Shown here in pieces: positions 1 to 62,794 of a stretch of 64,000 nucleotides of DNA; positions within the stretch are counted from its first letter, which is position 1, and each line of letters begins with the position of its first letter. Made by a program: the position numbers and the translations under genes. Location: the NCBI GenBank assembly GCA_964016885.1, contig OZ024745.1, forward strand, positions 60,016,001 through 60,080,000, given 5' to 3'. The DNA comes from Eledone cirrhosa. Lineage: Eukaryota. Under the pieces are notes generated by a model, which was given only the letters and a program-made list of their open reading frames with translations, did no database searches and had not been told where the DNA came from.

Positions 1-1311
1 ACTTGGAGTGAGAACCTCGACGTGGAGTGAGAACCTCGACTTGGAGTGAGAACCTCGACTTGGAGTGAAAACCTCGACTTGGAGTGAGAACCTCGACTTG
101 GAGTGAAAACCTCGACTTGGTGTGAGAACCTCGACTTGGAGTGAGAACCTCGACTTGGAGTGAAAACCTCGACTTGGAGTGAAAACCTCGACTTGGAGTG
201 AAAACCTCGACTTGGAGTGAGAACCTCGACTTGGAGTGAGAACCTCGACTTGGAGTGAGAACCTCGACTTGGAGTGAGAACCTCGACTTGCAGTGAAAAC
301 CTCGACTTGGAGTGAGAACCTCGACTTGCAGTGAAAACCTCGACTTGGAGTGAGAACCTCGACTTGCAGTGAAAACCTCGACTTGGAGTGAGAACCTCGA
401 CTTGGAGTGAAAACCTCGACTTGCAGTGAAAACCTCGACTTGGAGTGAGAACCTCGACTTGGAGTGAAAACCTCGACTTGGAGTGAAAACCTCGACTTGG
501 AATGAAAACCTCGACTTGGAGTGAGAACCTCGACTTGGAGTGAGAACCTCGACTTGGAGTGAGAACCTCGACTTGGAGTGAGAACCTCGACTTGGAGTGA
601 GAACCTCGACTTGGAGTGAGAACCTCGACTTGGAGTGTAAACTGCGACTCTGAGTGAAAACCTCGACTTGGAGTGAGAACCTCGACTTGGAGTGAAAACC
701 TCGACTTGGAGTGAGAACCTCGACTTGGAGTGAAAACCTCGACTTGGAGTGAAAACCTCGACTTGGAGTGAAAACCTCGACTTGGAGTGAGAACCTCGAC
801 TTGGAGTGAAAACCTCGACTTGGAGTGAAAACCTCGACTTGGAGTGAGAACCTCGACTTGGAGTGAGAACCTCGACTTGGAGTGAGAACCTCGACTTGGA
901 GTGAGAACCTCGACTTGGAGTGTAAACTGCGACTCTGAGTGAAAACCTCGACTTGGAGTGAGAACCTCGACTTGGAGTGAAAACCTCGACTTGGAGTGAG
1001 AACCTCGACTTGGAGTCAGAACCTCGACTTGGAGTCAGAACCTCGACTTGGAGTCAGAACCTCGACTTGGAGTCAGAACCTCGACTTGGAGTGAAAACCT
1101 CGACTTGGAGTGAAAACCTCGACTTGGAGTGAGAACCTCGACTTGGAGTGAGAACCTCGACTTGGAGTGAAAACCTCGACTTGGAGTGAGAACCTCTACT
1201 TGGAGTGAAAACCTCGACTTGGAGTGTAAACTGCGACTTGGAGTGAGAACCTCGACTTGGAGTGAAAACCTCGACTTGAAGTGTAAACTGCGACTTGGAG
1301 TGTAAACTGCG

Positions 1312-1710
1312 ACTTGGAGTGTAATGTACAACTTGGAGCATAATGTACAACTTGGAGCATAATGTACGACTTGGAGCATAATGTACGACTTAGAGTGTAA
1401 TGTAGGACTTAGAGTGTAATGTAGGACTTAGAGTGTAATGTAGGACTTAGAGTGTAATGTAGGACTTAGAGTGTAATGTAGGACTAGGAGCATAATGTAG
1501 GACTAGGAGCATAATGTACGACTTGGAGTGTAATGTAGGACTTGGAGTGTAATGTAGGACTTGGAGTGTAAACTGCGAGTTGAAATATAAATTGCGACTT
1601 GGATTGTAAACCTTGACTTGCAGTGTATTGAACAACTTGGGGTGTATACTGCGGCTTGGAGTGTAAACTGCGGCTCCGAATATAAACTACGACTTGCAGT
1701 GTCATATATG
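1312..1710. repeat. Diverged-monomer cassette copy 1 (21 x 19 bp = 399 bp)
   Basis: Monomer order: TGTAATGTACA; GCATAATGTAC(A/G) x3; ACTTAGAGTGTAATGTAGG x5; ACTAGGAGCATAATG x2; ACTTGGAGTGTAATGTAGG x2; then 8 distinct monomers ending ACTTGCAGTGTCATATATG. Confidence 0.95.
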
Positions 1711-2660
1711 ACTCTGAGTGAAAACCTCGACTTGGAGTGAAAACCTCGACTTGGAGTCAGAACCTCGACTTGGAGTGAGAACCTCGACTTGGAGTGAGAA
1801 CCTCGACTTGGAGTGAAAACCTCGACTTGGAGTGAGAACCTCGACTTGGAGTGAGAACCTCGACTTGGAGTGAGAACCTCGACTTGGAGTGAAAACCTCG
1901 ACTTGGAGTGAGAACCTCGACTTGGAGTGAAAACCTCGACTTGGAGTGAAAACCTCGACTTGGAGTGAAAACCTCGACTTGGAGTGAAAACCTCGACTTG
2001 GAGTGAGAACCTCGACTTGGAGTGAAAACCTCGACTTGGTGTGAGAACCTCGACTTGGAGTGAGAACCTCGACTTGGAGTGAGAACGTCGACTTGGAGTG
2101 AGAACGTCGACTTGGAGTGAGAACCTCGACTTGGAGTGAAAACCTCGACTTGGAGTGAAAACCTCGACTTGGAGTGAGAACCTCGACTTGGAGTGAGAAC
2201 CTCGACTTGGAGTGAAAACCTCGACTTGGAGTGAGAACCTCGACTTGGAGTGAGAACCTCGACTTGGAGTGAAAACCTCGACTTGGAGTGAGAACCTCGA
2301 CTTGGAGTGAGAACCTCGACTTGGAGTGAAAACCTCGACTTGGAGTGAAAACTTCGACTTGGAGTGAGAACCTCGACTTGGAGTGAGAACCTCGACTTGG
2401 AGTGAGAACCTCGACTTGGAGTGAAAACCTCGACTTGGTGCGAGAACCTCGACTTGGAGTTAAAACCTCGACTTGGAGTGAGAACCTCGACTTTGAGTGA
2501 GAACCTCGACTTGGAGTGAAAACCTCGACTTGGAGTGAGAACCTCTACTTGGAGTGAAAACCTCGACTTGGAGTGTAAACTGCGACTTGGAGTGAGAACC
2601 TCGACTTGGAGTGAAAACCTCGACTTGGAGTGTAAACTGCGACTTGGAGTGTAAACTGCG

Positions 2661-3059
2661 ACTTGGAGTGTAATGTACAACTTGGAGCATAATGTACAAC
2701 TTGGAGCATAATGTACGACTTGGAGCATAATGTACGACTTAGAGTGTAATGTAGGACTTAGAGTGTAATGTAGGACTTAGAGTGTAATGTAGGACTTAGA
2801 GTGTAATGTAGGACTTAGAGTGTAATGTAGGACTAGGAGCATAATGTAGGACTAGGAGCATAATGTACGACTTGGAGTGTAATGTAGGACTTGGAGTGTA
2901 ATGTAGGACTTGGAGTGTAAACTGCGAGTTGAAATATAAATTGCGACTTGGATTGTAAACCTTGACTTGCAGTGTATTGAACAACTTGGGGTGTATACTG
3001 CGGCTTGGAGTGTAAACTGCGGCTCCGAATATAAACTACGACTTGCAGTGTCATATATG
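2661..3059. repeat. Cassette copy 2
   Basis: Same 21-monomer order; 1349 bp (71 monomers) after copy 1. Confidence 0.95.
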
Positions 3060-5149
3060 ACTCTGAGTGAAAACCTCGACTTGGAGTGAAAACCTCGACT
3101 TGGAGTGAGAACCTCGACTTGGAGTGAGAACCTCGACTTGGAGTGAAAACCTCGACTTGGAGTGAGAACCTCGACTTGGAGTGAAAACCTCGACTTGGAG
3201 TGAAAACCTCGACTTGGAGTGAGAACCTCGACTTGGAGTGAAAACCTCGACTTGGAGTGAAAACCTCGACTTGGAGTGAGAACCTCGACTTGGAGTGAAA
3301 ACCTCGACTTGGAGTGAGAACCTCGACTTGGAGTGAAAACCTCGACTTGGAGTGAAAACCTCGACTTGGAGTGAGAACCTCGACTTGGAGTGAGAACCTC
3401 GACTTGGAGTGAAAACCTCGACTTGGAGTGAGAACCTCGACTTGGAGTGAGAACCTCGACTTGGAGTGAGAACCTCGACTTGGAGTGAAAACCTCGACTT
3501 GGAGTGAAAACCTCGACTTGGATTGAGAACCTCGACTTGGAGTGAAAACCTCGACTTGGAGTGAGAACCTCGACTTGGAGTGAGAACCTCGACTTGGAGT
3601 GAGAACCTCGACTTGAAGTGAGAACCTCGACTTGGAGTGAGAACCTCGACTTGGAGTGAGAACCTCGACTTGGAGTGAAAACTTCGACTTGGAGTGAGAA
3701 CCTCGACTTGGAGTGAGAACCTCGACTTGGAGTGAGAACCTCGACTTGGAGTGAGAACCTCGACTTGGAGTGATAACCTCGACTTGGAGTGAGAACCTCG
3801 ACTTGGAGTGAGAACCTCGACTTGGAGTGAAAACCTCGACTTGGAGTGAGAACCTCGACTTGGAGTGAAAACCTCGACTTGGAGTGAGAACCTCGACTTG
3901 GAGTGAAAACCTCGACTTGGAGTGAGAACCTCGACTTGGAGTGAAAACCTCGACTTGGAGTGAGAACCTCAACTTGGAGTGAGAACCTCGACTTTGAGTG
4001 AAAACCTCGACTTGGAGAGAGAACCTCGACTTGGAGTGAAAACCTCGACTTTGAGTGAAAACCTCGACTTGGAGTGAGAACCTCGACTTGGAGTGAGAAC
4101 CTCGACTTGGAGTGAGAACCTCGACTTGGAGTGAGAACCTCGACTTGGAGTGAGAACCTCGACTTGGAGTGAGAACCTCGACTTGGAGTGAGAACCTCGA
4201 CTTGGAGTGAAAACCTCGACTTGGAGTGAGAACCTCGACTTGGAGTGAAAACCTCGACTTGGAGTGAGAACCTCGACTTGGAGTGAAAACCTCGACTTGG
4301 AGTGAGAACCTCGACTTGGAGTGAAAACCTCGACTTGGAGTGAAAACCTCGACTTGGAGTGAGAACCTCGAATTGGAGTGAAAACCTCGACTTGGAGTGA
4401 GAACCTCGACTTGGAGTGAGAACCTCGACTTTGAGTGAAAACCTCGACTTGGAGAGAGAACCTCGACTTGGAGAGAGAACCTCGACTTGGAGTGAAAACC
4501 TCGACTTTGAGTGAAAACCTCGACTTGGAGTGAAAACCTCGACTTGGAGTGAGAACCTCGACTTGGAGTGGAAACCTCGACTTGGAGTGGAAACCTCGAC
4601 TTGGAGTGAAAACCTCGACTTGGAGTGAGAACCTCGACTTGGAGTGATAACCTCGACTTGGAGTGAGAACCTCGACTTGGAGTGAGAACCTCGACTTGGA
4701 GTGAAAACCTCGACTTGGAGTGAAAACCTCGACTTGGAGTGAAAACCTCGACTTGGAGTGAGAACCTCGACTTGGAGTGAGAACCTCGACTTGGAGTGAC
4801 AACCTCGACTTGGAGTGAGAACCTCGACGTGGAGTGAAAACTTCGACTTGGAGTGAGAACCTCGACTTGGAGTGAGAACCTCGACTTGGAGTGAGAACCT
4901 CGACTTGGAGTGAAAACCTCGACTTGGTGCGAGAACCTCGACTTGGAGTTAAAACCTCGACTTGGAGTGAGAACCTCGACTTTGAGTGAGAACCTCGACT
5001 TGGAGTGAAAACCTCGACTTGGAGTGAGAACCTCTACTTGGAGTGAAAACCTCGACTTGGAGTGTAAACTGCGACTTGGAGTGAGAACCTCGACTTGGAG
5101 TGAAAACCTCGACTTGGAGTGTAAACTGCGACTTGGAGTGTAAACTGCG

Positions 5150-5548
5150 ACTTGGAGTGTAATGTACAACTTGGAGCATAATGTACAACTTGGAGCATAA
5201 TGTACGACTTGGAGCATAATGTACGACTTAGAGTGTAATGTAGGACTTAGAGTGTAATGTAGGACTTAGAGTGTAATGTAGGACTTAGAGTGTAATGTAG
5301 GACTTAGAGTGTAATGTAGGACTAGGAGCATAATGTAGGACTAGGAGCATAATGTACGACTTGGAGTGTAATGTAGGACTTGGAGTGTAATGTAGGACTT
5401 GGAGTGTAAACTGCGAGTTGAAATATAAATTGCGACTTGGATTGTAAACCTTGACTTGCAGTGTATTGAACAACTTGGGGTGTATACTGCGGCTTGGAGT
5501 GTAAACTGCGGCTCCGAATATAAACTACGACTTGCAGTGTCATATATG
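5150..5548. repeat. Cassette copy 3
   Basis: Same order; +2489 bp (131 monomers). Confidence 0.95.
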
Positions 5549-8500
5549 ACTCTGAGTGAAAACCTCGACTTGGAGTGAAAACCTCGACTTGGAGTGAGAA
5601 CCTCGACTTGGAGTGAGAACCTCGACTTGGAGTGAAAACCTCGACTTGGAGTGAGAACCTCGACTTGGAGTGAAAACCTCGACTTGGAGTGAAAACCTCG
5701 ACTTGGAGTGAGAACCTCGACTTGGAGTGAAAACCTCGACTTGGAGTGAGAACCTCGACTTGGAGTGAAAACCTCGACTTGGAGTGAAAACCTCGACTTG
5801 GAGTGAGAACCTCGACTTGGAGTGAGAACCTCGACTTGGAGTGAAAACCTCGACTTGGAGTGAGAACCTCGACTTGGAGTGAGAACCTCGACTTGGAGTG
5901 AGAACCTCGACTTGGAGTGAAAACCTCGACTTGGAGTGAAAACCTCGACTTGGATTGAGAACCTCGACTTGGAGTGAAAACCTCGACTTGGAGTGAGAAC
6001 CTCGACTTGGAGTGAGAACCTCGACTTGGAGTGAGAACCTCGACTTGAAGTGAGAACCTCGACTTGGAGTGAGAACCTCGACTTGGAGTGAGAACCTCGA
6101 CTTGGAGTGAAAACTTCGACTTGGAGTGAGAACCTCGACTTGGAGTGAGAACCTCGACTTGGAGTGAGAACCTCGACTTGGAGTGAGAACCTCGACTTGG
6201 AGTGATAACCTCGACTTGGAGTGAGAACCTCGACTTGGAGTGAGAACCTCGACTTGGAGTGAAAACCTCGACTTGGAGTGAGAACCTCGACTTGGAGTGA
6301 AAACCTCGACTTGGAGTGAGAACCTCGACTTGGAGTGAAAACCTCGACTTGGAGTGAGAACCTCGACTTGGAGTGAAAACCTCGACTTGGAGTGAGAACC
6401 TCGACTTGGAGTGAGAACCTCGACTTTGAGTGAAAACCTCGACTTGGAGAGAGAACCTCGACTTGGAGTGAAAACCTCGACTTTGAGTGAAAACCTCGAC
6501 TTGGAGTGAGAACCTCGACTTTGAGTGAGAACCTCGACTTGGAGTGAGAACCTCGACTTGGAGTGAGAACCTCGACTTGGAGTGAGAACCTCGACTTGGA
6601 GTGAGAACCTCGACTTGGAGTGAGAACCTCGACTTGGAGTGAGAACCTCGACTTGGAGTGGAAACCTCGACTTGGAGTGAGAACCTCGACTTGGAGTGAA
6701 AACCTCGACTTGGAGTGAGAACCTCGACTTGGAGTGAAAACCTCGACTTGGAGTGAGAACCTCGACTTGGAGTGAAAACCTCGACTTGGAGTGAGAACCT
6801 CGACTTGGAGTGAAAACCTCGACTTGGAGTGAGAACCTCGACTTGGAGTGAAAACCTCGACTTGGAGTGAGAACCTCGACTTGGAGTGAGAACCTCGACT
6901 TTGAGTGAAAACCTCGACTTGGAGAGAGAACCTCGACTTGGAGAGAGAACCTCGACTTGGAGTGAAAACCTCGACTTTGAGTGAAAACCTCGACTTGGAG
7001 TGAAAACCTCGACTTGGAGTGAGAACCTCGACTTGGAGTGGAAACCTCGACTTGGAGTGGAAACCTCGACTTGGAGTGAAAACCTCGACTTGGAGTGAGA
7101 ACCTCGACTTGGAGTGATAACCTCGACTTGGAGTGAGAACCTCGACTTGGAGTGAGAACCTCGACTTGGAGTGAAAACCTCGACTTGGAGTGAAAACCTC
7201 GACTTGGAGTGAAAACCTCGACTTGGAGTGAGAACCTCGACTTGGAGTGAGAACCTCGACTTGGAGTGACAACCTCGACTTGGAGTGGAAACCTCGACTT
7301 GGAGTGAAAACCTCGACTTGGAGTGAAAACCTCGACTTGGAATGAGAACCTCGACTTGGAGTGAGAACCTCGACTTGGAGTGAAAACCTCGACTTGGAGT
7401 GAGAACCTTGACTTGGAGTGAGAACCTCGACTTGGAGTGAAAACCTCGACTTGGAGTGAGAACCTCGACTTGGAGTGAGAACCTCGACTTGGAGTGAGAA
7501 CCTCGACGTGGAGTGAGAACCTCGACTTGGAGTGAGAACCTCGACTTGGAGTGAAAACCTCGACTTGGAGTGAGAACCTCGACTTGGAGTGAAAACCTCG
7601 ACTTGGTGTGAGAACCTCGACTTGGAGTGAGAACCTCGACTTGGAGTGAGAACCTCGACTTGGAGTGAGAACCTCGACTTGCAGTGAAAACCTCGACTTG
7701 GAGTGAGAACCTCGACTTGGAGTGAAAACCTCGACTTGCAGTGAAAACCTCGACTTGGAGTGAGAACCTCGACTTGGAGTGAAAACCTCGACTTGGAGTG
7801 AAAACCTCGACTTGGAGTGAAAACCTCGACTTGGAGTGAGAACCTCGACTTGGAGTGAGAACCTCGACTTGGAGTGAGAACCTCGACTTGGAGTGAGAAC
7901 CTCGACTTGGAGTGAGAACCTCGACTTGGAGTGTAAACTGCGACTCTGAGTGAAAACCTCGACTTGGAGTGAGAACCTCGACTTGGAGTGAAAACCTCGA
8001 CTTGGAGTGAGAACCTCGACTTGGAGTGAGAACCTCGACTTGGAGTGAAAACCTCGACTTGGAGTGAAAACCTCGACTTGGAGTGAAAACCTCGACTTGG
8101 AGTGAGAACCTCGACTTGGAGTGAAAACCTCGACTTGGAGTGAAAACCTCGACTTGGAGTGAGAACCTCGACTTGGAGTGAGAACCTCGACTTGGAGTGA
8201 GAACCTCGACTTGGAGTGAGAACCTCGACTTGGAGTGTAAACTGCGACTCTGAGTGAAAACCTCGACTTGGAGTGAGAACCTCGACTTGGAGTGAAAACC
8301 TCGACTTGGAGTGAGAACCTCGACTTGGAGTCAGAACCTCGACTTGGAGTCAGAACCTCGACTTGGAGTCAGAACCTCGACTTGGAGTCAGAACCTCGAC
8401 TTGGAGTCAGAACCTCGACTTCGAGTGAAAACCTCGACTTGGAGTGAAAACCTCGACTTGGAGTGAGAACCTCGACTTGGAGTGAGAACCTCGACTTGGA

Positions 8501-8645
8501 GTGAAAACCTCGACTTGGAGTGAGAACCTCTACTTGGAGTGAAAACCTCGACTTGGAGTGTAAACTGCGACTTGGAGTGAGAACCTCGACTTGGAGTGAA
8601 AACCTCGACTTGGAGTGTAAACTGCGACTTGGAGTGTAAACTGCG

Positions 8646-9044
8646 ACTTGGAGTGTAATGTACAACTTGGAGCATAATGTACAACTTGGAGCATAATGTA
8701 CGACTTGGAGCATAATGTACGACTTAGAGTGTAATGTAGGACTTAGAGTGTAATGTAGGACTTAGAGTGTAATGTAGGACTTAGAGTGTAATGTAGGACT
8801 TAGAGTGTAATGTAGGACTAGGAGCATAATGTAGGACTAGGAGCATAATGTACGACTTGGAGAGTAATGTAGGACTTGGAGTGTAATGTAGGACTTGGAG
8901 TGTAAACTGCGAGTTGAAATATAAATTGCGACTTGGATTGTAAACCTTGACTTGCAGTGTATTGAACAACTTGGGGTGTATACTGCGGCTTGCAGTGTAA
9001 ACTGCGGCTCCGAATATAAACTACGACTTGCAGTGTCATATATG
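8646..9044. repeat. Cassette copy 4 (GGAGAGTAAT subtype)
   Basis: +3496 bp (184 monomers); variant GGAGAGTAAT near 8861; followed by GAACACTTCAAC. Confidence 0.95.
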
Positions 9045-9956
9045 ACTCTGAGTGAACACTTCAACTTGGAGTGAAAACCTCGACTTGGAGTGAGAACCTC
9101 GACTTGGAGTGAGAACCTCGACTTGGAGTGAAAACCTCGACTTGGAGTGAGAACCTCGACTTGGAGTGAAAACCTCGACTTGGAGTGAAAACCTCGACTT
9201 GGAGTGAGAACCTCGACTTGGAGTGAGAACCTCGACTTGGAGTGAGAACCTCGACTTGGAGTGAAAACCTCGACTTGGAGTGAGAACCTCGACTTGGAGT
9301 GAGAACCTCGACTTGGAGTGAGAACCTCGACTTGGAGTGAAAACCTCGACTTGGAGTGAGAACCTCGACTTGGAGTGAAAACCTCGACTTGGAGTGAAAA
9401 CCTCGACTTGGAGTGAAAACCTCGACTTGGAGTGAAAACCTCGACTTGGAGTGAGAACCTCGACTTGGAGTGAAAACCTCGACTTGGAGTGAGAACCTCG
9501 ACTTGGAGTGAGAACCTCGACTTGGAGTGAGAACGTCGACTTGGAGTGAGAACGTCGACTTGGAGTGAGAACCTCGACTTGGAGTGAAAACCTCGACTTG
9601 GAGTGAAAACCTCGACTTGGAGTGAGAACCTCGACTTGGAGTGAGAACCTCGACTTGGAGTGAAAACCTCGACTTGGAGTGAGAACCTCGACTTGGAGTG
9701 AGAACCTCGACTTGGAGTGAAAACCTCGACTTGGAGTGAAAACTTCGACTTGGAGTGAGAACCTCGACTTTGAGTGAGAACCTCGACTTGGAGTGAAAAC
9801 CTCGACTTGGAGTGAGAACCTCTACTTGGAGTGAAAACCTCTACTTGGAGTGAAAACCTCGACTTGGAGTGTAAACTGCGACTTGGAGTGAGAACCTCGA
9901 CTTGGAGTGAAAACCTCGACTTGGAGTGTAAACTGCGACTTGGAGTGTAAACTGCG

Positions 9957-10355
9957 ACTTGGAGTGTAATGTACAACTTGGAGCATAATGTACAACTTGG
10001 AGCATAATGTACGACTTGGAGCATAATGTACGACTTAGAGTGTAATGTAGGACTTAGAGTGTAATGTAGGACTTAGAGTGTAATGTAGGACTTAGAGTGT
10101 AATGTAGGACTTAGAGTGTAATGTAGGACTAGGAGCATAATGTAGGACTAGGAGCATAATGTACGACTTGGAGTGTAATGTAGGACTTGGAGTGTAATGT
10201 AGGACTTGGAGTGTAAACTGCGAGTTGAAATATAAATTGCGACTTGGATTGTAAAGCTTGACTTGCAGTGTATTGAACAACTTGGGGTGTATACTGCGGC
10301 TTGGAGTGTAAACTGCGGCTCCGAATATAAACTACGACTTGCAGTGTCATATCTG
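9957..10355. repeat. Cassette copy 5 (CATATCTG subtype)
   Basis: +1311 bp (69 monomers); CATATCTG end; private AAAGCTTG near 10253. Confidence 0.95.
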
Positions 10356-12350
10356 ACTCTGAGTGAAAACCTCGACTTGGAGTGAAAACCTCGACTTGGA
10401 GTGAGAACCTCGACTTGGAGTGAGAACCTCGACTTGGAGTGAAAACCTCGACTTGGAGTGAGAACCTCGACTTGGAGTGAAAACCTCGACTTGGAGTGAA
10501 AACCTCGACTTGGAGTGAGAACCTCGACTTGGAGTGAGAACCTCGACTTGGAGTGAGAACCTCGACTTGGAGTGAAAACCTCGACTTGGAGTGAGAACCT
10601 CGACTTGGAGTGAGAACCTCGACTTGGAGTGAGAACCTCGACTTGGAGTGAAAACCTCGACTTGGAGTGAGAACCTCGACTTGGAGTGAGAACCTCGACT
10701 TGGAGTGAAAACCTCGACTTGGAGTGAAAACCTCGACTTGGAGTGAAAACCTCGACTTGGAGTGAGAACCTCGACTTGGAGTGAAAACCTCGACTTGGAG
10801 TGAGAACCTCGACTTGGAGTGAGAACCTCGACTTGGAGTGAGAACCTCGACTTGGAGTGAAAACCTCGACTTGGAGTGAGAACCTCGACTTGGAGTGAGA
10901 ACCTCGACTTGGAGTGAGAACGTCGACTTGGAGTGAGAACGTCGACTTGGAGTGAGAACCTCGACTTGGAGTGAAAACCTCGACTTGGAGTGAAAACCTC
11001 GACTTGGAGTGAGAACCTCGACTTGGAGTGAGAACCTCGACTTGGAGTGAAAACCTCGACTTGGAGTGAGAACCTCGACTTGGAGTGAGAACCTCGACTT
11101 GGAGTGAAAACCTCGACTTGGAGTGAGAACCTCGACTTGGAGTGAGAACCTCGACTTGGAGTGAGAACCTCGACTTGGAGTGAAAACCTCGACTTGGAGT
11201 GAAAACTTCGACTTGGAGTGAGAACCTCGACTTGGAGTGAGAACCTCGACTTGGAGTGAGAACCTCGACTTGGAGTGAAAACCTCGACTTGGTGCGAGAA
11301 CCTCGACTTGGAGTTAAAACCTCGACTTGGAGTGAGAACCTCGACTTGGAGTGAAAACCTCGACTTGGAGTGAGAACCTCGACTTGGAGTGAGAACCTCG
11401 ACTTGGAGTGGAAACCTCGACTTGGAGTGAAAACCTCGACTTGGAGTCAGAACCTCGACTTTGAGTGAAAACCTCGACTTGGGGTGAGAACCTCGACTTG
11501 GAGTGAAAACCTCGACTTGGAGTGAGAACCTCGACTTGGAGTGAAAACCTCGACTTGGAGTGAAAACCTCGACTTGGAGTGAGAACCTCGACTTGGAGTG
11601 GAAACCTCGACTTGTAGTGAAAACCTCGACTTGGAGTGAAAACCTCGACTTGGAGTGAGAACCTCGACTTGGAGTGAGAACCTCGACTTGGAGTGAGAAC
11701 CTCGACTTGGAGTGAGAACCTCGACTTGGAGTGAGAACCTCGACTTGGAGTGAAAACCTCGACTTGGAGTGAGAACCTCGACTTGGAGTGAAAACCTCGA
11801 CTTGGAGTGAAAACCTCGACTTGGAGTGAAAACCTCGACTTGGAGTGAGAACCTCGACTTGGAGTGAGAACCTCGACTTGGAGTGACAACCTCGACTTGG
11901 AGTGAAAACCTCGACTTGGAGTGAGAACCTCGACTTGGAGTGAGAACCACGACTTGGAGTGAAAACCTCGACTTGGAGTGAGAACCTCGACTTGGAGTGA
12001 AAACCTCGACTTGGAGGGAAAACCTCGACTTGGAGTGAGAACCTCGACTTGGAGTGAGAACCTCGACTTGGAGTGAGAACCTCGACTTGGAGTGAGAACC
12101 TCGACTTGGAGTGAAAACCTCGACTTGGAGTGAAAACCTCGACTTGGAGTGAAAACCTCGACTTGGAGTGAGAACCTCGACTTGGAGTGAGAACCTCGAC
12201 TTGGAGTGAAAACCTCGACTTGGAGTGAGAACCTCTACTTGGAGTGAAAACCTCGACTTGAAGTGTAAACTGCGACTTGGAGTGAGAACCTCGACTTGGA
12301 GTGAAAACCTCGACTTGGAGTGTAAACTGCGACTTGGAGTGTAAACTGCG

Positions 12351-50597: not shown

Positions 50598-52573
50598 ACT
50601 CTGAGTGAAAACCTCGACTTGGGGTGAAAACCTCGACTTGGAGTGAGAACCTCGACTTGGAGTGAGAACCTCGACTTGGAGTGAAAACCTCGACTTGGAG
50701 TGAGAACCTCGACTTGGAGTGAAAACCTCGACTTGGAGTGAAAACCTCGACTTGGAGTGAGAACCTCGACTTGGAGTGAGAACCTCGACTTGGAGTGAAA
50801 ACCTCGACTTGGAGTGAAAACCTCGACTTGGAGTGAATACCTCGACTTGGAGTGAAAACCTCGACTTGGAGTGAAAACCTCGACTTGGAGTGAGAACCTC
50901 GATTTGGAGTGAGAACCTCGACTTGGAGTGAGAACCTCGACTTGGAGTGAGAACCTCGATTTGGAGTGAGAACCTCGATTTGGAGTGAGAACCTCGATTT
51001 GGAGTGAGAACCTCGATTTGGAGTGAGAACCTCGATTTGGAGTGAGAACCTCGACTTGGAGTGAAAACCTCGACTTGGAGTGAAAACCTCGACTTGGAGT
51101 GAGAACCTCGACTTGGAGTGAGAACCTCGACATGGAGTGAAAACCTCGACTTGGAGTGAGAACCTCGACTTGGAGTGAAAACCTCGACTTTGAGTGAAAA
51201 CCTCGACTTGGAGTGAAAACCTCGACTTGGAGTGAGAACCTCGACTTGGAGTGAGAACCTCGACTTGGAGTGAAAACCTCGACTTGGAGTGAGAACCTCG
51301 ACTTGGAGTGAAAACCTCGACTTGGAGTGAGAACCTCGACTTGGAGTGAGAACCTCGACTTGGAGTGAAAACCTCGACTTGGAGTGAGAACCTCGACTTG
51401 GAGTGAAAACCTCGACTTGGAGTGAGAACCTCGACTTGGAGTGAAAACCTCGACTTGGAGTGAGAACCTCGACTTGGAGTGAAAACCTCGACTTGGAGTG
51501 AAAACCTCGACTTGGAGTGAAAACCTCGACTTGGAGTGAGAACCTCGACTTGGAGTGAGAACCTCGACTTGGAGTGAGAACCTCGATTTGGAGTGAGAAC
51601 CTCGACTTGGAGTGAGAACCTCGACTTGGAGTGAGAACCTCGACTTGGAGTGAGAACCTCGACTTGGAGTGAGAACCTCGACTTGGAGTGAGAACCTCGA
51701 CTTGGAGTGAGAACCTCGACTTGGAGTGAAAACCTCGACTTGGAGTGAGAACCTCGACTTGGAGTGAAAACCTCGACTTGGAGTGAGAACCTCGACTTGG
51801 AGTGAAAACCTCGACTTGGAGTGAGAACCTCGACTTGGAGTGAGAACCTCGACTTGGAGTGAAAACCTCGACTTGGAGTGAGAACCTCGACTTGGAGTGA
51901 AAACCTCGACTTGGAGTGAGAACCTCGACTTGGAGTGAGAACCTCGACTTGGAGTGAAAACCTCGACTTGGAGTGAAAACCTCGACTTGGAGTGAAAACC
52001 TCGACTTGGAGTGAGAACCTCGACTTGGAGTGAAAACCTCGACTTGGAGTGAGAACCTCGACTTGGAGTGAAAACCTCGACTTGGAGTGAGAACCTCGAC
52101 TTGGAGTGAAAACCTCGACTTGGAGTGAGAACCTCGACTTGGAGTGAAAACCTCGACTTGGAGTGAGAACCTCGACTTGGAGTGAAAACCTCGACTTGGA
52201 GTGAGAACCTCGACTTGGAGTGAGAACCTCGACTTGGAATGAAAACCTCGACTTGGAGTGAAAACCTCGACTTGGAGTGAAAACCTCGACTTGGAGTGAG
52301 AACCTCGACTTGGAGTGTAAACCTCGACTTGGAGTGTAAACCTCGACTTGGAGTGTAAACCTCGACTTGGAGTGTAAACCTCGACTTGGAGTGTAAACCT
52401 CGACTTGGAGTGAGAACCTCGACTTGGAGTGAAAACCTCGACTTGGAGTGAGAACCTCTACTTGGAGTGAAAACCTCGACTTGGAGTGTAAACTGCGACT
52501 TGGAGTGAGAACCTCGACTTGGAGTGAAAACCTCGACTTGGAGTGTAAACTGCGACTTGGAGTGTAAACTGCG

Positions 52574-52972
52574 ACTTGGAGTGTAATGTACAACTTGGAG
52601 CATAATGTACAACTTGGAGCATAATGTACGACTTGGAGCATAATGTACGACTTAGAGTGTAATGTAGGACTTAGAGTGTAATGTAGGACTTAGAGTGTAA
52701 TGTAGGACTTAGAGTGTAATGTAGGACTTAGAGTGTAATGTAGGACTAGGAGCATAATGTAGGACTAGGAGCATAATGTACGACTTGGAGTGTAATGTAG
52801 GACTTGGAGTGTAATGTAGGACTTGGAGTGTAAACTGCGAGTTGAAATATAAATTGCGACTTGGATTGTAAACCTTGACTTGCAGTGTATTGAACAACTT
52901 GGGGTGTATACTGCGGCTTGGAGTGTAAACTGCGGCTCCGAATATAAACTACGACTTGCAGTGTCATATATG
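52574..52972. repeat. Cassette copy 23
   Basis: +2375 bp (125 monomers, right end). Confidence 0.95.
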
Positions 52973-55518
52973 ACTCTGAGTGAAAACCTCGACTTGGAGT
53001 GAAAACCTCGACTTGGAGTGAGAACCTCGACTTGGAGTGAGAACCTCGACTTGGAGTGAAAACCTCGACTTGGAGTGAGAACCTCGACTTGGAGTGAAAA
53101 CCTCGACTTGGAGTGAGAACCTCGACTTGGAGTGAAAACCTCAACTTGGAGTGAGAACCTCGACTTGGAGTGAAAACCTCGACTTGGAGTGAAAACCTCG
53201 ACTTGGAGTGAGAACCTCGACTTGGAGTGAGAACCTCGATTTGGAGTGAAAACCTCGACTTGGAGTGAGAACCTCGACTTGGAGTGAGAACCTCGACTTG
53301 GAGTGAGAACATCGACTTGGAGTGAGAACCTCGACTTGGAGTGAGAACCTCGACTTGGAGTGAGAACCTCGACTTGGAGTGAGAACCTCGACTTGGAGTG
53401 AAAACCTCGACTTGGAGTGAGAACCTCGACTTGGAGTGAAAACCTCGACTTGGAGTGAGAACCTCGACTTGGAGTGAAAACCTCGACTTGGAGTGAGAAC
53501 CTCGACTTGGAGTGAGAACCTCGACTTTGAGTGAAAACCTCGACTTGGAGAGAGAACCTCGACTTGGAGTGAGAACCTCGACTTTGAGTGAAAACCTCGA
53601 CTTGGAGTGAGAACCTCGACTTTGAGTGAAAACCTCGACTTGGAGTGAGAACCTCGACTTGGAGTGAGAACCTCGACTTGGAGTGAGAACCTCGACTTGG
53701 AGTGGAAACCTCGACTTGGAGTGAGAACCTCGACTTGGAGTGAAAACCTCGACTTGGAGTGAGAACCTCGACTTGGAGTGAAAACCTCGACTTGGAGTGA
53801 AAACCTCGACTTGGAGTGAAAACCTCGACTTGGAGTGAGAACCTCGACTTGGAGTGAAAACCTCGACTTGGAGTGAGAACCTCGACTTGGAGTGAAAACC
53901 TCGACTTGGAGTGAGAACCTCGACTTGGAGTGAAAACCTCGACTTGGAGTGAGAACCTCGACTTGGAGTGAGAACCTCGACTTTGTGTGAAAACCTCGAC
54001 TTGGAGAGAGAACCTCGACTTGGAGTGAGAACCTCGACTTTGAGTGAAAACCTCGACTTGGAGTGAGAACCTCGACTTTGAGTGAAAACCTCGACTTGGA
54101 GTGAGAACCTCGACTTGGAGTGAAAACCTCGACTTGGAGTGAAAACCTCGACTTGGAGTGAGAACCTCGACTTGGAGTGGAAACCTCGACTTGGAGTGGA
54201 AACCTCGACTTGGAGTGAAAACCTCGACTTGGAGTGAGAACCTCGACTTGGAGTGAGAACCTCGACTTGGAGTGAGAACCTCGACTTGGAGTGAGAACCT
54301 CGACTTGGAGTGAGAACCTCGACTTGGAGTGAGAACCTCGACTAGGAGTGAGAACCTCGACTTGGAGTGAAAACCTCGACTAGGAGTGAGAACCTCGACT
54401 TGGAGTGAGAACCTCGACTTGGAGTGAGAACCTCGACTTGGAGTGAGAACCTCGACTTGGAGTGAGAACCTCGACTTGGAGTGAGAACCTCGACTTGCAG
54501 TGAAAACCTCGACTTGGAGTGAGAACCTCGACTTGCAGTGAAAACCTCGACTTGGAGTGAGAACCTCGACTTGCAGTGAAAACCTCGACTTGGAGTGAGA
54601 ACCTCGACTTGGAGTGAAAACCTCGACTTGCAGTGAAAACCTCGACTTGGAGTGAGAACCTCGACTTGGAGTGAAAACCTCGACTTGGAGTGAAAACCTC
54701 GACTTGGAATGAAGACCTCGACTTGGAATGAGAACCTCGACTTGGAGTGAGAACCTCGACTTGGAGTGAGAACCTCGACTTGGAGTGAGAACCTCGACTT
54801 GGAGTGAGAACCTCGACTTGGAGTGTAAACTGCGACTCTGAGTGAAAACCTCGACGTGGAGTAAGAACCTCGACTTGGAGTGAAAACCTCGACTTGGAGT
54901 GAGAACCTCGACTTGGAGTGAGAACCTCGACTTGGAGTGAAAACCTCGACTTGGAGTGAAAACCTCGACTTGGAGTGAAAACCTCGACTTGGAGTGAGAA
55001 CCTCGACTTGGAGTGAAAACCTCGACTTGGAGTGAAAACCTCGACTTGGAGTGAGAACCTCGACTTGGAGTGAGAACCTCGACTTGGAGTGAGAACCTCG
55101 ACTTGGAGTGTAAACTGCGACTCTGAGTGAAAACCTCGACTTGGAGTGAGAACCTCGACTTGGAGTGAAAACCTCGACTTGGAGTGAGAACCTCGACTTG
55201 GAGTCAGAACCTCGACTTGGAGTCAGAACCTCAACTTGGAGTCAGAACCTCGACTTGGAGTCAGAACCTCGACTTGGAGTCAGAACCTCGACTTGGAGTG
55301 AAAACCTCGACTTGGAGTGAAAACCTCGACTTGGAGTGAGAACCTCGACTTGGAGTGAGAACCTCGACTTGGAGTGAAAACCTCGACTTGGAGTGAGAAC
55401 CTCTACTTGGAGTGAAAACCTCGACTTGGAGTGTAAACTGCGACTTGGAGTGAGAACCTCGACTTGGAGTGAAAACCTCGACTTGGAGTGTAAACTGCGA
55501 CTTGGAGTGTAAACTGCG

Positions 55519-55917
55519 ACTTGGAGTGTAATGTACAACTTGGAGCATAATGTACAACTTGGAGCATAATGTACGACTTGGAGCATAATGTACGACTTAG
55601 AGTGTAATGTAGGACTTAGAGTGTAATGTAGGACTTAGAGTGTAATGTAGGACTTAGAGTGTAATGTAGGACTTAGAGTGTAATGTAGGACTAGGAGCAT
55701 AATGTAGGACTAGGAGCATAATGTACGACTTGGAGTGTAATGTAGGACTTGGAGTGTAATGTAGGACTTGGAGTGTAAACTGCGAGTTGAAATATAAATT
55801 GCGACTTGGATTGTAAACCTTGACTTGCAGTGTATTGAACAACTTGGGGTGTATACTGCGGCTTGGAGTGTAAACTGCGGCTCCGAATATAAACTACGAC
55901 TTGCAGTGTCATATATG
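55519..55917. repeat. Cassette copy 24
   Basis: +2945 bp (155 monomers). Confidence 0.95.
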
Positions 55918-58900
55918 ACTCTGAGTGAAAACCTCGACTTGGAGTGAAAACCTCGACTTGGAGTGAGAACCTCGACTTGGAGTGAGAACCTCGACTTGGA
56001 GTGAAAACCTCGACTTGGAGTGAGAACCTCGACTTGGAGTGAAAACCTCGACTTGGAGTGAAAACCTCGACTTGGAGTGAGAACCTCGACTTGGAGTGAA
56101 AACCTCGACTTGGAGTGAGAACCTCGACTTGGAGTGAAAACCTCGACTTGGAGTGAAAACCTCGACTTGGAGTGAGAACCTCGACTTGGAGTGAGAACCT
56201 CGACTTGGAGTGAGAACCTCGACTTGGAGTGAGAACCTCGACTTGGAGTGAGAACCTCGACTTGGAGTGAGAACCTCGACTTGGAGTGAGAACCTCGACT
56301 TGGAGTGAGAACCTCGACTTGGAGTGAGAACCTCGACTTGGAGTGAGAACCTCGACTTGGAGTGAAAACCTCGACTTGGAGTGAGAACCTCGACTTGGAG
56401 TGAGAACCTCGACTTGGAGTGAGAACCTCGACTTGGAGTGAAAACTTCGACTTGGAGTGAGAACCTCGACTTGGAGTGAGAACCTCGACTTGGAGTGAGA
56501 ACCTCGACTTGGAGTGGAAACCTCGACTTGGAGTGAGAACCTCGACTTGGAGTGAGAACCTCGACTTGGAGTGAGAACCTCGACTTGGAGTGAGAACCTC
56601 GACTTGGAGTGAGAACCTCGACTTGGAGTGAAAACCTCGACTTGGAGTGAGAACCTCGACTTGGAGTGAAAACCTCGACTTGGAGTGAGAACCTCGACTT
56701 GGAGTGAAAACCTCGACTTGGAGTGAGAACCTCGACTTGGAGTGAGAACCTCGACTTGGAGTGAGAACCTCGACTTGGAGTGAGAACCTCGACTTTGAGT
56801 GAAAACCTCGACTTGGAGAGAGAACCTCCACTTGGAGTGAGAACCTCGACTTTGAATGAAAACCTCGACTTGGAGTGAGAACCTCGACTTTGAGTGAAAA
56901 CCTCGACTTGGAGTGAGAACCTCGACTTGGAGTGAGAACCTCGACTTGGAGTGAGAACCTCGACTTGGAGTGGAAACCTCGACTTGGAGTGAGAACCTCG
57001 ACTTGGAGTGAAAACCTCGACTTGGAGTGAGAACCTCGACTTGGAGTGAAAACCTCGACTTGGAGTGAGAACCTCGACTTGGAGTGAAAACCTCGACTTG
57101 GAGTGAGAACCTCGACTTGGAGTGAAAACCTCGACTTGGAGTGAGAACCTCGACTTGGAGTGAAAACCTCGACTTGGAGTGAGAACCTCGACTTGGAGTG
57201 AAAACCTCGACTTGGAGTGAGAACCTCGACTTGGAGTGAAAACCTCGACTTGGAGTGAGAACCTCGACTTGGAGTGAGAACCTCGACTTTGAGTGAAAAC
57301 CTCGACTTGGAGAGAGAACCTCGACTTGGAGTGAGAACCTCGACTTTGAGTGAAAACCTCGACTTGGAGTGAGAACCTCGACTTTGAGTGAAAACCTCGA
57401 CTTGGAGTGAGAACCTCGACTTGGAGTGAAAACCTCGACTTGGAGTGAAAACCTCGACTTGGAGTGAGAACCTCGACTTGGAGTGGAAACCTCGACTTGG
57501 AGTGAGAACCTCGACTTGGAGTGAAAACCTCGACTTGGAGTGAGAACCTCGACTTGGAGTGAGAACCTCGACTTGGAGTGAGAACCTCGACTTGGAGTGA
57601 GAACCTCGACTTGGAGTGAGAACCTCGACTTGGAGTGATAACCTCGACTTGGAGTGAGAACCTCGACTTGGAGTGAGAACCACGACTTGGAGTGAAAACC
57701 TCGACTTGGAGTGAAAACCTCGACTTGGAGTGAAAACCTCGACTTGGAGTGAAAACCTCGACTTGGAGTGAGAACCTCGACTTGGAGTGACAACCTCGAC
57801 TTGGAGTGAAAACCTCGACTTGGAGTGAAAACCTCGACTTGGAGTGAAAACCTCGACTTGGAGTGAGAACCTCGACTTGGAGTGAGAACCTCGACTTGGA
57901 GTGAAAACCTCGACTTGGAGTGAGAACCTCGACTTGGAGTGAGAACCTCGACTTGGAGTGAAAACCTCGATTGGAGTGAGAACCTCGACTTGGAGTGAGA
58001 ACCTCGACTTGGAGTGAGAACCTCGACGTGGAGTGAGAACCTCGACTTGGAGTGAGAACCTCGACTTGGAGTGAAAACCTCGACTTGGAGTGAGAACCTC
58101 GACTTGGAGTGAAAACCTCGACTTGGAGTGAAAACCTCGACTTGGAGTGAGAACCTCGACTTGGAGTGAGAACCTCGACTTGGAGTGAGAACCTCGACTT
58201 GGAGTGTAAACTGCGACTCTGAGTGAAAACCTCGACTTGGAGTGAGAACCTCGACTTGGAGTGAAAACCTCGACTTGGAGTGAGAACCTCGACTTGGAGT
58301 CAGAACCTCGACTTGGAGTCAGAACCTCGACTTGGAGTCAGAACCTCGACTTGGAGTCAGAACCTCGACTTGGAGTCAGAACCTCGACTTGGAGTGAAAA
58401 CCTCGACTTGGAGTGAAAACCTCGACTTGGAGTGAGAACCTCGACTTGGAGTCAGAACCTCGACTTGGAGTGAAAACCTCGACTTGGAGTGAAAACCTCG
58501 ACTTGGAGTGAGAACCTCGACTTGGAGTGAGAACCTCGACTTGGAGTGAAAACCTCGACTTGGAGTGAGAACCTCTACTTGGAGTGAGAACCTCGACTTG
58601 GAGTGAGAACCTCGACTTGGAGTGAGAACCTCGACTTGGAGTGAGAACCTCGACTTGGAGTGTAAACTGCGACTCTGAGTGAAAACCTCGACTTGGAGTG
58701 AGAACCTCGACTTGGAGTGAAAACCTCGACTTGGAGTGAGAACCTCGACTTGGAGTCAGAACCTCGACTTGGAGTCAGAACCTCGACTTGGAGTCAGAAC
58801 CTCGACTTGGAGTGAAAACCTCGACTTGGAGTGAAAACCTCGACTTGGAGTGAAAACCTCGACTTGGAGTGAAAACCTCGACTAGGAGTGAGAACCTCGA

Positions 58901-60590
58901 CTTGGAGTGAGAACCTCGACTTGGAGTGAGAACCTCGACTTGGAGTGAGAACCTCGACTTGGAGTGAGAACCTCGACTTGGAGTGAGAACCTCGACTTGC
59001 AGTGAAAACCTCGACTTGGAGTGAGAACCTCGACTTGGAGTGAGAACCTCGACTTGGAGTGAGAACCTCGACTTGGAGTGAGAACCTCGACTTGGAGTGT
59101 AAACTGCAACTCTGAGTGAAAACCTCGACGTGGAGTGAGAACCTCCACTTGGAGTGAGAACCTCGACTTGGAGTGAAAACCTCGACTTGGAGTGAGAACC
59201 TCGACTTGGAGTGAGAACCTCGACTTGGAGTGAGAACCTCGACGTGTAGTGAGAACCTCGACTTGGAGTGAGAACCTCGACTTGGAGTGAGAACCTCGAC
59301 TTGGAGTGAAAACCTCGACTTGGAGTGAAAACCTCGACTTGGAGTGAAAACCTCGACTTGGAGTGAAAACCTCGACTAGGAGTGAGAACCTCGACTTGGA
59401 GTGAGAACCTCGACTTGGAGTGAGAACCTCGACTTGGAGTGAGAACCTCGACTTGGAGTGAGAACCTCGACTTGGAGTGAGAACCTCGACTTGCATTGAA
59501 AACCTCGACTTGGAGTGAGAACCTCGACTTGCAGTGAAAACCTCGACTTGGAGTGAGAACCTCGACTTGCAGTGAAAACCTCGACTTGGAGTGAGAACCT
59601 CGACTTGGAGTGAAAACCTCGACTTGCAGTGAAAACCTCGACTTGGAGTGAGAACCTCGACTTGGAGTGAAAACCTCGACTTGGAGTGAAAACCTCGACT
59701 TGGAATGAAGACCTCGACTTGGAGTGAGAACCTCGACTTGGAGTGAGAACCTCGACTTGGAGTGAGAACCTCGACTTGGAGTGAGAACCTCGACTTGGAG
59801 TGAGAACCTCGACTTGGAGTGTAAACTGCGACTCTGAGTGAAAACCTCGACGTGGAGTGAGAACCTCGACTTGGAGTGAAAACCTCGACTTGGAGTGAGA
59901 ACCTCGACTTGGAGTGAGAACCTCGACTTGGAGTGAAAACCTCGACTTGGAGTGAAAACCTCGACTTGGAGTGAAAACCTCGACTTGGAGTGAGAACCTC
60001 GACTTGGAGTGAAAACCTCGACTTGGAGTGAAAACCTCGACTTGGAGTGAGAACCTCGACTTGGAGTGAGAACCTCGACTTGGAGTGAGAACCTCGACTT
60101 GGAGTGTAAACTGCGACTCTGAGTGAAAACCTCGACTTGGAGTGAGAACCTCGACTTGGAGTGAAAACCTCGACTTGGAGTGAGAACCTCGACTTGGAGT
60201 CAGAACCTCGACTTGGAGTCAGAACCTCGACTTGGAGTCAGAACCTCGACTTGGAGTCAGAACCTCGACTTGGAGTCAGAACCTCGACTTGGAGTGAAAA
60301 CCTCGACTTGGAGTGAAAACCTCGACTTGGAGTGAGAACCTCGACTTGGAGTCAGAACCTCGACTTGGAGTGAAAACCTCGACTTGGAGTGAAAACCTCG
60401 ACTTGGAGTGAGAACCTCGACTTGGAGTGAGAACCTCGACTTGGAGTGAAAACCTCGACTTGGAGTGAGAACCTCTACTTGGAGTGAAAACCTCGACTTG
60501 GAGTGTAAACTGCGACTTGGAGTGAGAACCTCGACTTGGAGTGAAAACCTCGACTTGGAGTGTAAACTGCGACTTGGAGTGTAAACTGCG

Positions 60591-60989
60591 ACTTGGAGTG
60601 TAATGTACAACTTGGAGCATAATGTACAACTTGGAGCATAATGTACGACTTGGAGCATAATGTACGACTTAGAGTGTAATGTAGGACTTAGAGTGTAATG
60701 TAGGACTTAGAGTGTAATGTAGGACTTAGAGTGTAATGTAGGACTTAGAGTGTAATGTAGGACTAGGAGCATAATGTAGGACTAGGAGCATAATGTACGA
60801 CTTGGAGTGTAATGTAGGACTTGGAGTGTAATGTAGGACTTGGAGTGTAAACTGCGAGTTGAAATATAAATTGCGACTTGGATTGTAAACCTTGACTTGC
60901 AGTGTATTGAACAACTTGGGGTGTATACTGCGGCTTGGAGTGTAAACTGCGGCTCCGAATATAAACTACGACTTGCAGTGTCATATATG
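60591..60989. repeat. Cassette copy 25
   Basis: +5072 bp (267 monomers minus 1 bp). Confidence 0.95.
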
Positions 60990-62794
60990 ACTCTGAGTGA
61001 AAACCTCGACTTGGAGTGAAAACCTCGACTTGGAGTGAGAACCTCGACTTGGAGTGAGAACCTCGACTTGGAGTGAAAACCTCGACTTGGAGTGAGAACC
61101 TCGACTTGGAGTGAAAACCTCGACTTGGAGTGAAAACCTCGACTTGGAGTGAGAACCTCGACTTGGAGTGAAAACCTCGACTTGGAGTGAAAACCTCGAC
61201 TTGGAGTGAAAACCTCGACTTGGAGTGAGAACCTCGACTTGGAGTGAGAACCTCGACTTGGAGTGACAACCTCGACTTGGAGTGGAAACCTCGACTTGGA
61301 GTGAAAACCTCGACTTGGAGTGAATACCTCGACTTGGAATGAGAACCTCGACTTGGAGTGAGAACCTCGACTTGGAGTGAAAACCTCGACTTGGAGTGAG
61401 AACCTTGACTTGGAGTGAGAACCTCGACTTGGAGTGAAAACCTCGACTTGGAGTGAGAACCTCGACTTGGAGTGAGAACCTCGACTTGGAGTGAGAACCT
61501 CGACGTGGAGTGAGAACCTCGACTTGGAGTGAGAACCTCGACTTGGAGTGAAAACCTCGACTTGGAGTGAGAACCTCGACTTGGAGTGAAAACCTCGACT
61601 TGGTGTGAGAACCTCGACTTGGAGTGAGAACCTCGACTTGGAGTGAAAACCTCGACTTGGAGTGAAAACCTCGACTTGGAGTGAAAACCTCGACTTGGAG
61701 TGAGAACCTCGACTTGGAGTGAGAACCTCGACTTGGAGTGAGAACCTCGACTTGGAGTGAGAACCTCGACTTGCAGTGAAAACCTCGACTTGGAGTGAGA
61801 ACCTCGACTTGCAGTGAAAACCTCGACTTGGAGTGAGAACCTCGACTTGCAGTGAAAACCTCGACTTGGAGTGAGAACCTCGACTTGGAGTGAAAACCTC
61901 GACTTGCAGTGAAAACCTCGACTTGGAGTGAGAACCTCGACTTGGAGTGAAAACCTCGACTTGGAGTGAAAACCTCGACTTGGAATGAAAACCTCGACTT
62001 GGAGTGAGAACCTCGACTTGGAGTGAGAACCTCGACTTGGAGTGAGAACCTCGACTTGGAGTGAGAACCTCGACTTGGAGTGAGAACCTCGACTTGGAGT
62101 GAGAACCTCGACTTGGAGTGTAAACTGCGACTCTGAGTGAAAACCTCGACTTGGAGTGAGAACCTCGACTTGGAGTGAAAACCTCGACTTGGAGTGAGAA
62201 CCTCGACTTGGAGTGAAAACCTCGACTTGGAGTGAAAACCTCGACTTGGAGTGAAAACCTCGACTTGGAGTGAGAACCTCGACTTGGAGTGAAAACCTCG
62301 ACTTGGAGTGAAAACCTCGACTTGGAGTGAGAACCTCGACTTGGAGTGAGAACCTCGACTTGGAGTGAGAACCTCGACTTGGAGTGAGAACCTCGACTTG
62401 GAGTGTAAACTGCGACTCTGAGTGAAAACCTCGACTTGGAGTGAGAACCTCGACTTGGAGTGAAAACCTCGACTTGGAGTGAGAACCTCGACTTGGAGTC
62501 AGAACCTCGACTTGGAGTCAGAACCTCGACTTGGAGTCAGAACCTCGACTTGGAGTCAGAACCTCGACTTGGAGTCAGAACCTCGACTTGGAGTGAAAAC
62601 CTCGACTTGGAGTGAGAACCTCGACTTGGAGTGAGAACCTCGACTTGGAGTGAAAACCTCGACTTGGAGTGAGAACCTCTACTTGGAGTGAAAACCTCGA
62701 CTTGGAGTGTAAACTGCGACTTGGAGTGAGAACCTCGACTTGGAGTGAAAACCTCGACTTGAAGTGTAAACTGCGACTTGGAGTGTAAACTGCG

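What the first reader, a model, noticed from the sequence alone, without database searches (positions are those of the whole stretch)
628..62433. About 29 'empty-site' junctions: the cassette's left and right flanks fused with the cassette precisely missing
Seen: full cassettes are preceded by ACTTGGAGTGTAAACTGCG and followed by ACTCTGAGTGAAAACCTCG (ACTCTGAGTGAACACTTCA after copies 4, 16, 20). These two rare monomers also occur directly joined (GTAAACTGCG|ACTCTGAGTG) at about 628, 913, 7924, 8228, 16512, 16797, 20312, 20445, 21927, 22212, 29128, 29413, 31883, 32111, 32339, 38096, 38400, 41041, 45734 (variant), 46038, 54816, 55101, 58197, 58653, 59090 (variant), 59812, 60097, 62111 and 62396. 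I saw ACTCTG only in these two contexts. Inference: this looks like filled versus empty sites. It may be the scar of an in-register deletion of the cassette, or the pre-insertion site. One ancestral event amplified with the array is the simplest explanation; recurrent excision as a 399-bp circle is the more exciting one.
Basis: partly seen in the sequence, partly recalled or inferred. Interest (0 to 1): 0.7.

Follow-up and report, generated by a model that had tools for sequence, protein, structure and literature searches.

The report
Old deletion scar in satellite DNA
The 29 'empty sites' are real, but they are copies of one tiny leftover of an older repeat layer, likely made by one or two old deletions and multiplied as the satellite array grew, not signs of a cassette that keeps jumping out.

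Summary
Observation confirmed: all 29 junctions lie where stated, and all 55 ACTCTG are either these (29) or cassette ends (26). The filled/empty reading mostly fails. The window lies in a 1.02-Mb 19-bp satellite array whose two edges are an older layer built on the 'left flank' monomer T. That layer holds the cassette's ancestor (240 of 247 bases identical), already followed by ACTCTGAGTG. So the cassette is native relic satellite, and both 'flanks' belong to the relic. The junction is a 14-bp old-type patch, shorter than one monomer. Empty and filled sites have different neighbours on both sides (window: 0 of 29 share either flank with the 26 filled). The predicted circle junction has 0 matches in the assembly. 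Real cassette losses break in the g/a flanks instead. A cassette-free array on C1 holds 110 more exact junctions. Best reading: one or two old in-register deletions in the old/new transition zone, then amplification within higher-order repeats. This is ordinary layered satellite evolution. Raw-read tests for somatic circles or polymorphism were not run.

The parts
1..64000 (+). 19-bp satellite (young g/a monomers), part of a ~1.02-Mb array at G000:C5:59,287,9xx-60,308,1xx
638..651 (+). The diagnostic 14-bp old-type patch of the first junction: 5 substitutions against an a-a dimer
628..665 (+). T|X junction 1
913..950 (+). T|X junction 2
7924..7961 (+). T|X junction 3
8228..8265 (+). T|X junction 4
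16512..16549 (+). T|X junction 5
16797..16834 (+). T|X junction 6
20312..20349 (+). T|X junction 7
20445..20482 (+). T|X junction 8
21927..21964 (+). T|X junction 9
22212..22249 (+). T|X junction 10
29128..29165 (+). T|X junction 11
29413..29450 (+). T|X junction 12
31883..31920 (+). T|X junction 13
32111..32148 (+). T|X junction 14
32339..32376 (+). T|X junction 15
38096..38133 (+). T|X junction 16
38400..38437 (+). T|X junction 17
41041..41078 (+). T|X junction 18
45734..45771 (+). T|X junction 19 (one-base variant of T)
46038..46075 (+). T|X junction 20
54816..54853 (+). T|X junction 21
55101..55138 (+). T|X junction 22
58197..58234 (+). T|X junction 23
58653..58690 (+). T|X junction 24; just upstream (58558) a cassette was lost by a deletion with breakpoints in the g/a flanks
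59090..59127 (+). T|X junction 25 (one-base variant of T)
59812..59849 (+). T|X junction 26
60097..60134 (+). T|X junction 27
62111..62148 (+). T|X junction 28
62396..62433 (+). T|X junction 29
1312..1710 (+). Cassette 1, 21 old-layer monomers (the relic runs on over the T monomers before it and 10 bases after it)
2661..3059 (+). Cassette 2
5150..5548 (+). Cassette 3
8646..9044 (+). Cassette 4 (followed by Y)
9957..10355 (+). Cassette 5
12351..12749 (+). Cassette 6
14042..14440 (+). Cassette 7
17215..17613 (+). Cassette 8
20939..21337 (+). Cassette 9
22706..23104 (+). Cassette 10
25366..25764 (+). Cassette 11
28121..28519 (+). Cassette 12
29907..30305 (+). Cassette 13
32757..33155 (+). Cassette 14
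34106..34504 (+). Cassette 15
38799..39159 (+). Cassette 16 (19 monomers; followed by Y)
40072..40470 (+). Cassette 17
41459..41857 (+). Cassette 18
42713..43111 (+). Cassette 19
46456..46816 (+). Cassette 20 (19 monomers; followed by Y)
47710..48108 (+). Cassette 21
50218..50597 (+). Cassette 22 (20 monomers)
52574..52972 (+). Cassette 23
55519..55917 (+). Cassette 24
60591..60989 (+). Cassette 25
62795..63193 (+). Cassette 26

Best explanation
The 'empty site' is a 14-bp patch of old-layer satellite sequence, likely made by one or two old in-register deletions of a relic block and then copied passively inside higher-order repeats. Shown: the array has old T-type layers at both ends; these hold the cassette's ancestor with ACTCTGAGTG attached; X is an old left half joined to a young right half; empty and filled sites have separate flanks. 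Inferred: in the zone where old and young monomers interleave, mispaired repair (unequal exchange, single-strand annealing or break-induced replication) joined a T-type monomer to X through a 4-5-bp shared word. The patch is shorter than a monomer, so later exchanges rarely split T from X. It was duplicated within the repeat unit, expanded with the young layer, and carried without a cassette to an array on C1.
For: Layer profile: old-type monomers dominate 59.288-59.310 Mb and 60.257-60.308 Mb; T|X is absent from the pure old layers. Cassette against edge block: 240 of 247 bases over 13 monomers; the left 10 bases of X equal the old monomer's 10 of 10. Every true O-type monomer is followed by ACTCTG (252 of 258 O-like hits; the other 6 are H variants). 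Flanks in the window: downstream a-type in 0 of 29 empty and 26 of 26 filled; TT upstream in 0 of 29 and 26 of 26. In the 516-kb interior the same counts are 7 of 246 against 175 of 187, and 1 of 246 against 163 of 187. Direction: 28 of 28 T|X in the left block carry a rare downstream monomer found after just one filled cassette, 5.7 kb away. Three left-truncated cassettes (two T|NOX, one TT|KLMNOX) lie in the same zone. On C1 the patch duplicates as a single 19-bp unit (T-W-X, 38 W copies). In-register indels are the measured norm in satellite arrays (10.1101/2025.06.02.657473, passages).
Against: The deletion itself is not observed, and the shared word at the joint is only 4 bp (5 bp from the older N' form), so the exact breakpoints and deleted length (399, 133 or 38 bp) are not determined. 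Interior T|X carry a plain g downstream, not the left block's marker, so one origin or two cannot be decided. Old left-edge V-V tandems (6 copies) are one substitution from the T|X joint and offer another route. One haploid assembly only; 730 kb of the 1,020-kb array was fetched.
Confidence: 0.85

Rival explanations
1. The cassette is excised precisely and recurrently as a 399-bp circle, leaving T|X.
For: T and X do bracket the cassette, and joining them gives T|X. Tandem repeats are generally prone to form circles (PMC3225859, abstract). One interior site has the filled upstream flank joined to a T|X-type joint (60,251,767).
Against: No 3+3 or 2+2 flank haplotype is shared in the window. The single shared 3+3 haplotype in the interior carries an X variant found only at empty sites (6 after T, 0 after O), so it is a T-T crossover into an existing empty site. 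O|A junction: 0 in the genome and 0 in fetched DNA. T|Y: 0 of 11. Of 175 upstream-marker sites, 15 lacked a called cassette: 2 are segmentation failures and about 2 are chance marker mutations (my reading); the rest, about 7 lineages, do not give T|X with filled flanks. Only 4 bp are shared at the required joint.
Confidence: 0.03
2. T|X is the pre-insertion site and the cassette is an inserted element.
For: An array with T|X and no cassette exists on C1 (110 exact junctions, 0 cassette motifs).
Against: The cassette is made of in-register 19-bp monomers and matches the old edge layer at 240 of 247 bases. There ACTCTGAG follows O'- or V-type monomers, never a T-type end (0 of 24 left, 0 of 35 right). 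C1 has only young-type monomers plus the patch.
Confidence: 0.02
3. T|X never held a cassette: it comes from an old V-V or W-V tandem by a point change and exchange with a young monomer.
For: Six old left-edge joints differ from T|X by one base; W monomers exist in the right edge (2) and on C10 (5).
Against: T|X uses the same chimeric X as filled cassettes, and the left block shares a rare downstream marker with a filled cassette.
Confidence: 0.08
4. Assembly artefact (collapsed or mis-joined satellite).
For: Near-identical blocks repeat at offsets of about 61.5-62.1 kb; the C1 array starts beside a 200-N gap.
Against: The junction has stable private flanks and lineage-specific variants over hundreds of copies on two contigs. 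Copy numbers could be off, but the junction's existence is unlikely to be.
Confidence: 0.02

Closest known systems
Layered expansion of satellite arrays with higher-order repeats (human alpha satellite; PMC11034957, passages)
   Same: A young homogeneous layer in the middle, older divergent layers at both ends, nested higher-order units, large block duplications.
   Different: The monomer is 19 bp; pieces of the old layer are kept inside the young higher-order unit; centromere function is not tested here.
Periodicity-preserving indels in Arabidopsis CEN178 arrays (10.1101/2025.06.02.657473, passages)
   Same: Deletions and duplications remove or add whole units, and so look 'precise' without any site-specific enzyme.
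   Different: Those were measured in mutation-accumulation lines; here the event is inferred from one assembly.
Extrachromosomal circles of satellite repeats (PMC3225859, abstract)
   Same: Any tandem array, this one included, may shed circles made of whole units.
   Different: No evidence here of a circle with fixed cassette ends; circles would be expected to join in the near-identical g/a monomers.
Filled and empty sites of mobile or integrative elements (recalled)
   Same: Superficially, two flanks seen both apart and fused.
   Different: No foreign DNA, and the 'flanks' are part of the relic; flank haplotypes of the two states do not match.

Membership tests
Layered satellite array with higher-order repeats | Head-to-tail monomers kept in register | tested here: met
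   One 19-bp array over the window, 3368 units, one indel called
Layered satellite array with higher-order repeats | Ordered multi-monomer units repeated | tested here: met
   Recurring order: cassette, long g/a tract, T|X, T|X, cassette; blocks duplicated at about 62 kb
Layered satellite array with higher-order repeats | Older divergent layers at both ends | tested here: met
Layered satellite array with higher-order repeats | Centromeric chromatin on the young layer | not testable with these tools
   No chromatin data
Excising or inserting element with filled and empty sites | Empty and filled sites share both flanks | tested here: not met
Excising or inserting element with filled and empty sites | Element is distinct from the target DNA, with its own ends | tested here: not met
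   Cassette is native old-layer satellite and continues into both 'flanks'
Excising or inserting element with filled and empty sites | End-to-end (circle or tandem) junction exists | tested here: not met
   0 matches in the assembly; this tests integrated copies only
Excising or inserting element with filled and empty sites | Free circles, or filled/empty polymorphism in reads | not testable with these tools
   Holders are short-read contigs and even the most distinct part of the cassette is a tandem repeat

The most novel reading that the evidence does not exclude
In some tissue or lineage the relic cassette is cut out at its exact ends as a 399-bp circle, regenerating T|X, at a rate too low to leave a trace in this assembly: a site-specific excision unit hidden in a satellite.
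Probability: 0.03. Interest if true: 0.75.

Novelty: new member of a known kind. Interest (0 to 1): 0.2.

Why it matters
As it stands it is a tidy worked example: the whole history of one satellite variant can be read from one array (old edge layer, transition zone, young higher-order repeat, second chromosome). It is also a caution that 'precise' filled and empty junctions in satellites follow from in-register repair and from where the monomer boundary is drawn. The monomer sequences were not found in one full-text search (five 19-mers, 0 papers). Only real, repeated excision would matter to specialists, and the assembly argues against it.

Tried and rejected
Genome search for the O-to-monomer circle or tandem junction: 0 matches. 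Six apparent O-like monomers followed by ACTTGG were checked and are H variants inside cassettes. Fisher tests on flanks gave very small p values, but copies are not independent, so I rely on the counts. Comparing rare monomers did not assign the C1 array to one C5 block. Earlier-findings look-ups returned nothing. Paper search for the monomers: 0. In one search non-ASCII symbols printed as '?', so that view was redone. The 290 kb of the array not fetched holds no exact T|X and no cassette motif by subtraction: genome counts 358, 209 and 239 equal the counts in fetched DNA (against 19, 41).

Full report
Labels are mine: g and a are the two common young monomers, T is the 'left flank' monomer, A to O are the cassette monomers, X and Y are the 'right flank' monomers, and V and W are old-type monomers that begin with ACTCTGAGTG.

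Observation. The window is one 19-bp tandem array of 3368 units, mostly g (1290) and a (848). ACTCTG occurs 55 times, all on +. 29 follow a T-type monomer, at exactly the 29 listed starts; 26 follow a cassette. The cassette is 21 monomers in 23 of 26 copies. T itself is common: 125 exact copies, including one within the cassette.

Flanks. If T|X were left by excision in place, empty sites would keep the neighbours of filled ones. They do not. In the window all 26 filled sites read gaTT upstream and a-type downstream; the 29 empty sites have a single T (27 after ggg) and g-type downstream. No 3+3 or 2+2 flank haplotype is shared. In the cassette-bearing interior (59.74-60.256 Mb; 246 empty, or 247 by the looser rule; 187 filled), 7 of 246 empties have an a downstream. 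All 7 carry an X variant whose right half is g-like, which I read as loss of one monomer from X-g. One of 246 has TT upstream; it carries an X variant seen only at empty sites (6 after T, 0 after O), so it is a crossover between T monomers into an existing empty site. Two 2+2 haplotypes are shared in the interior, one being that site. Y follows 11 cassettes and 0 T.

The array. The window is G000:C5:60,016,001-60,080,000. The array runs from about 59,287,900 to 60,308,150; 730 kb of 1,020 kb was fetched. Both ends are an older layer whose consensus is T, with almost no g or a on the left and a minority on the right. This layer has its own higher-order repeat (about 1.65 kb at the left end), which contains the cassette's ancestor: 240 of 247 bases are identical over 13 monomers, and it is followed by V, whose left 10 bases equal those of X. 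So X is old left half plus young right half, and T is simply the old consensus. Both 'flanks' belong to the relic. O-type monomers are always followed by ACTCTG. T|X is absent from the old layers: 0 of 24 and 0 of 35 ACTCT starts (five non-satellite hits beyond the array dropped).

What the junction is. Against an a-a dimer, T|X differs at 5 bases within 14 bp. That is less than one monomer and only straddles the boundary as drawn. It behaves as one unit: on C1 it has duplicated in tandem to T-W-X (38 W copies).

Origin. The first T|X appears at 59,315,887, in the zone where old and young monomers interleave, next to three left-truncated cassettes. All 28 T|X of the block 59.316-59.369 Mb are followed by a rare monomer that follows exactly one filled cassette (59,310,219). 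This points to filled-to-empty deletion. Interior T|X are followed by plain g, as are filled cassettes near both ends of the array, so there may be a second origin or a later exchange. The word shared at the joint is 4 bp from A, 2 bp from the internal T and 5 bp from the old N'; the deleted length cannot be fixed. A route from old V-V tandems by one substitution remains possible.

No sign of circles. The O-to-monomer junction has 0 matches in the genome and in fetched DNA. Cassettes are lost repeatedly, but with breakpoints elsewhere: 15 of 175 upstream-marker sites lack a called cassette; 2 are segmentation failures, about 2 chance mutations, and the rest are about 7 lineages by my reading, none giving T|X with filled flanks. 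One such loss is in the window at 58558. These tests see only the assembly.

Spread. The genome holds 358 exact T|X: 27 in the left C5 block, 221 in the C5 interior and 110 in a 68.5-kb array on C1 that has no cassette motif. Cassette motifs (209 and 239) are all on C5 or in a 1.5-kb old-type mini-array on C10. Exact blocks of the window recur about 61.5-62.1 kb away on both sides, so many of the 29 sites are recent copies; with 2 monomers each side they fall into 6 haplotypes, one holding 20.

Comparison. Layered expansion pushes older repeats to the periphery, and out-of-register repair adds or deletes whole repeats (PMC11034957, passages). In Arabidopsis lines the large centromeric indels removed or added complete units (10.1101/2025.06.02.657473, passages). 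Satellites generally shed circles (PMC3225859, abstract). Other papers were seen as search listings only; no supplements were read. The monomers were not found in one full-text search. The finding fits these known processes and fails the tested features of a filled/empty mobile element.

Verdict. Real pattern, ordinary cause: an old scar amplified in a layered satellite. Interest 0.2.

Noticed in passing
G000:C10:9,943,864-9,945,410 (L086:3864-5410): A 1.5-kb mini-array of old-type monomers with cassette fragments, between AT-rich tracts. It starts exactly at an O'-like end joined to W, so it is either a fragment seeded from the old layer or near the satellite's birthplace.
   Followed up: partly
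G000:C1:279,407,812-279,476,326 (L040-L044, L062-L064): A 68.5-kb young-type array rich in T|X with no cassette, between two other satellites; a 200-N gap lies on its left. It suggests transfer of a segment between chromosomes.
   Followed up: partly
G000:C5:59.369-59.747 Mb (L083, L088, L032-L035, L089, L084, L036; sampled): About 380 kb of nearly pure g/a monomers without T|X or cassette, between the left T|X block and the cassette-bearing layer: a separate expansion layer.
   Followed up: partly
window against flanks, offsets about -61.5 kb and +62.1 kb: Large near-identical block duplications (a super-repeat) around the window.
   Followed up: partly
G000:C5:59,287,900-59,303,500 (L026-L028): The old edge layer has out-of-register units of 10, 14 and 15 bp inside its higher-order repeat, whereas the young layer is almost free of indels.
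   Followed up: no
G000:C1 just after 279,476,326 (L044): The neighbouring AT-rich satellite of about 19 bp changes orientation within a few hundred bases (an inversion joint).
   Followed up: no
window:1293-1729, run X3: A run labelled as a second coded organism (B) holds 0.72 of the cassette's sampled words; the cassette may be shared with a relative.
   Followed up: no
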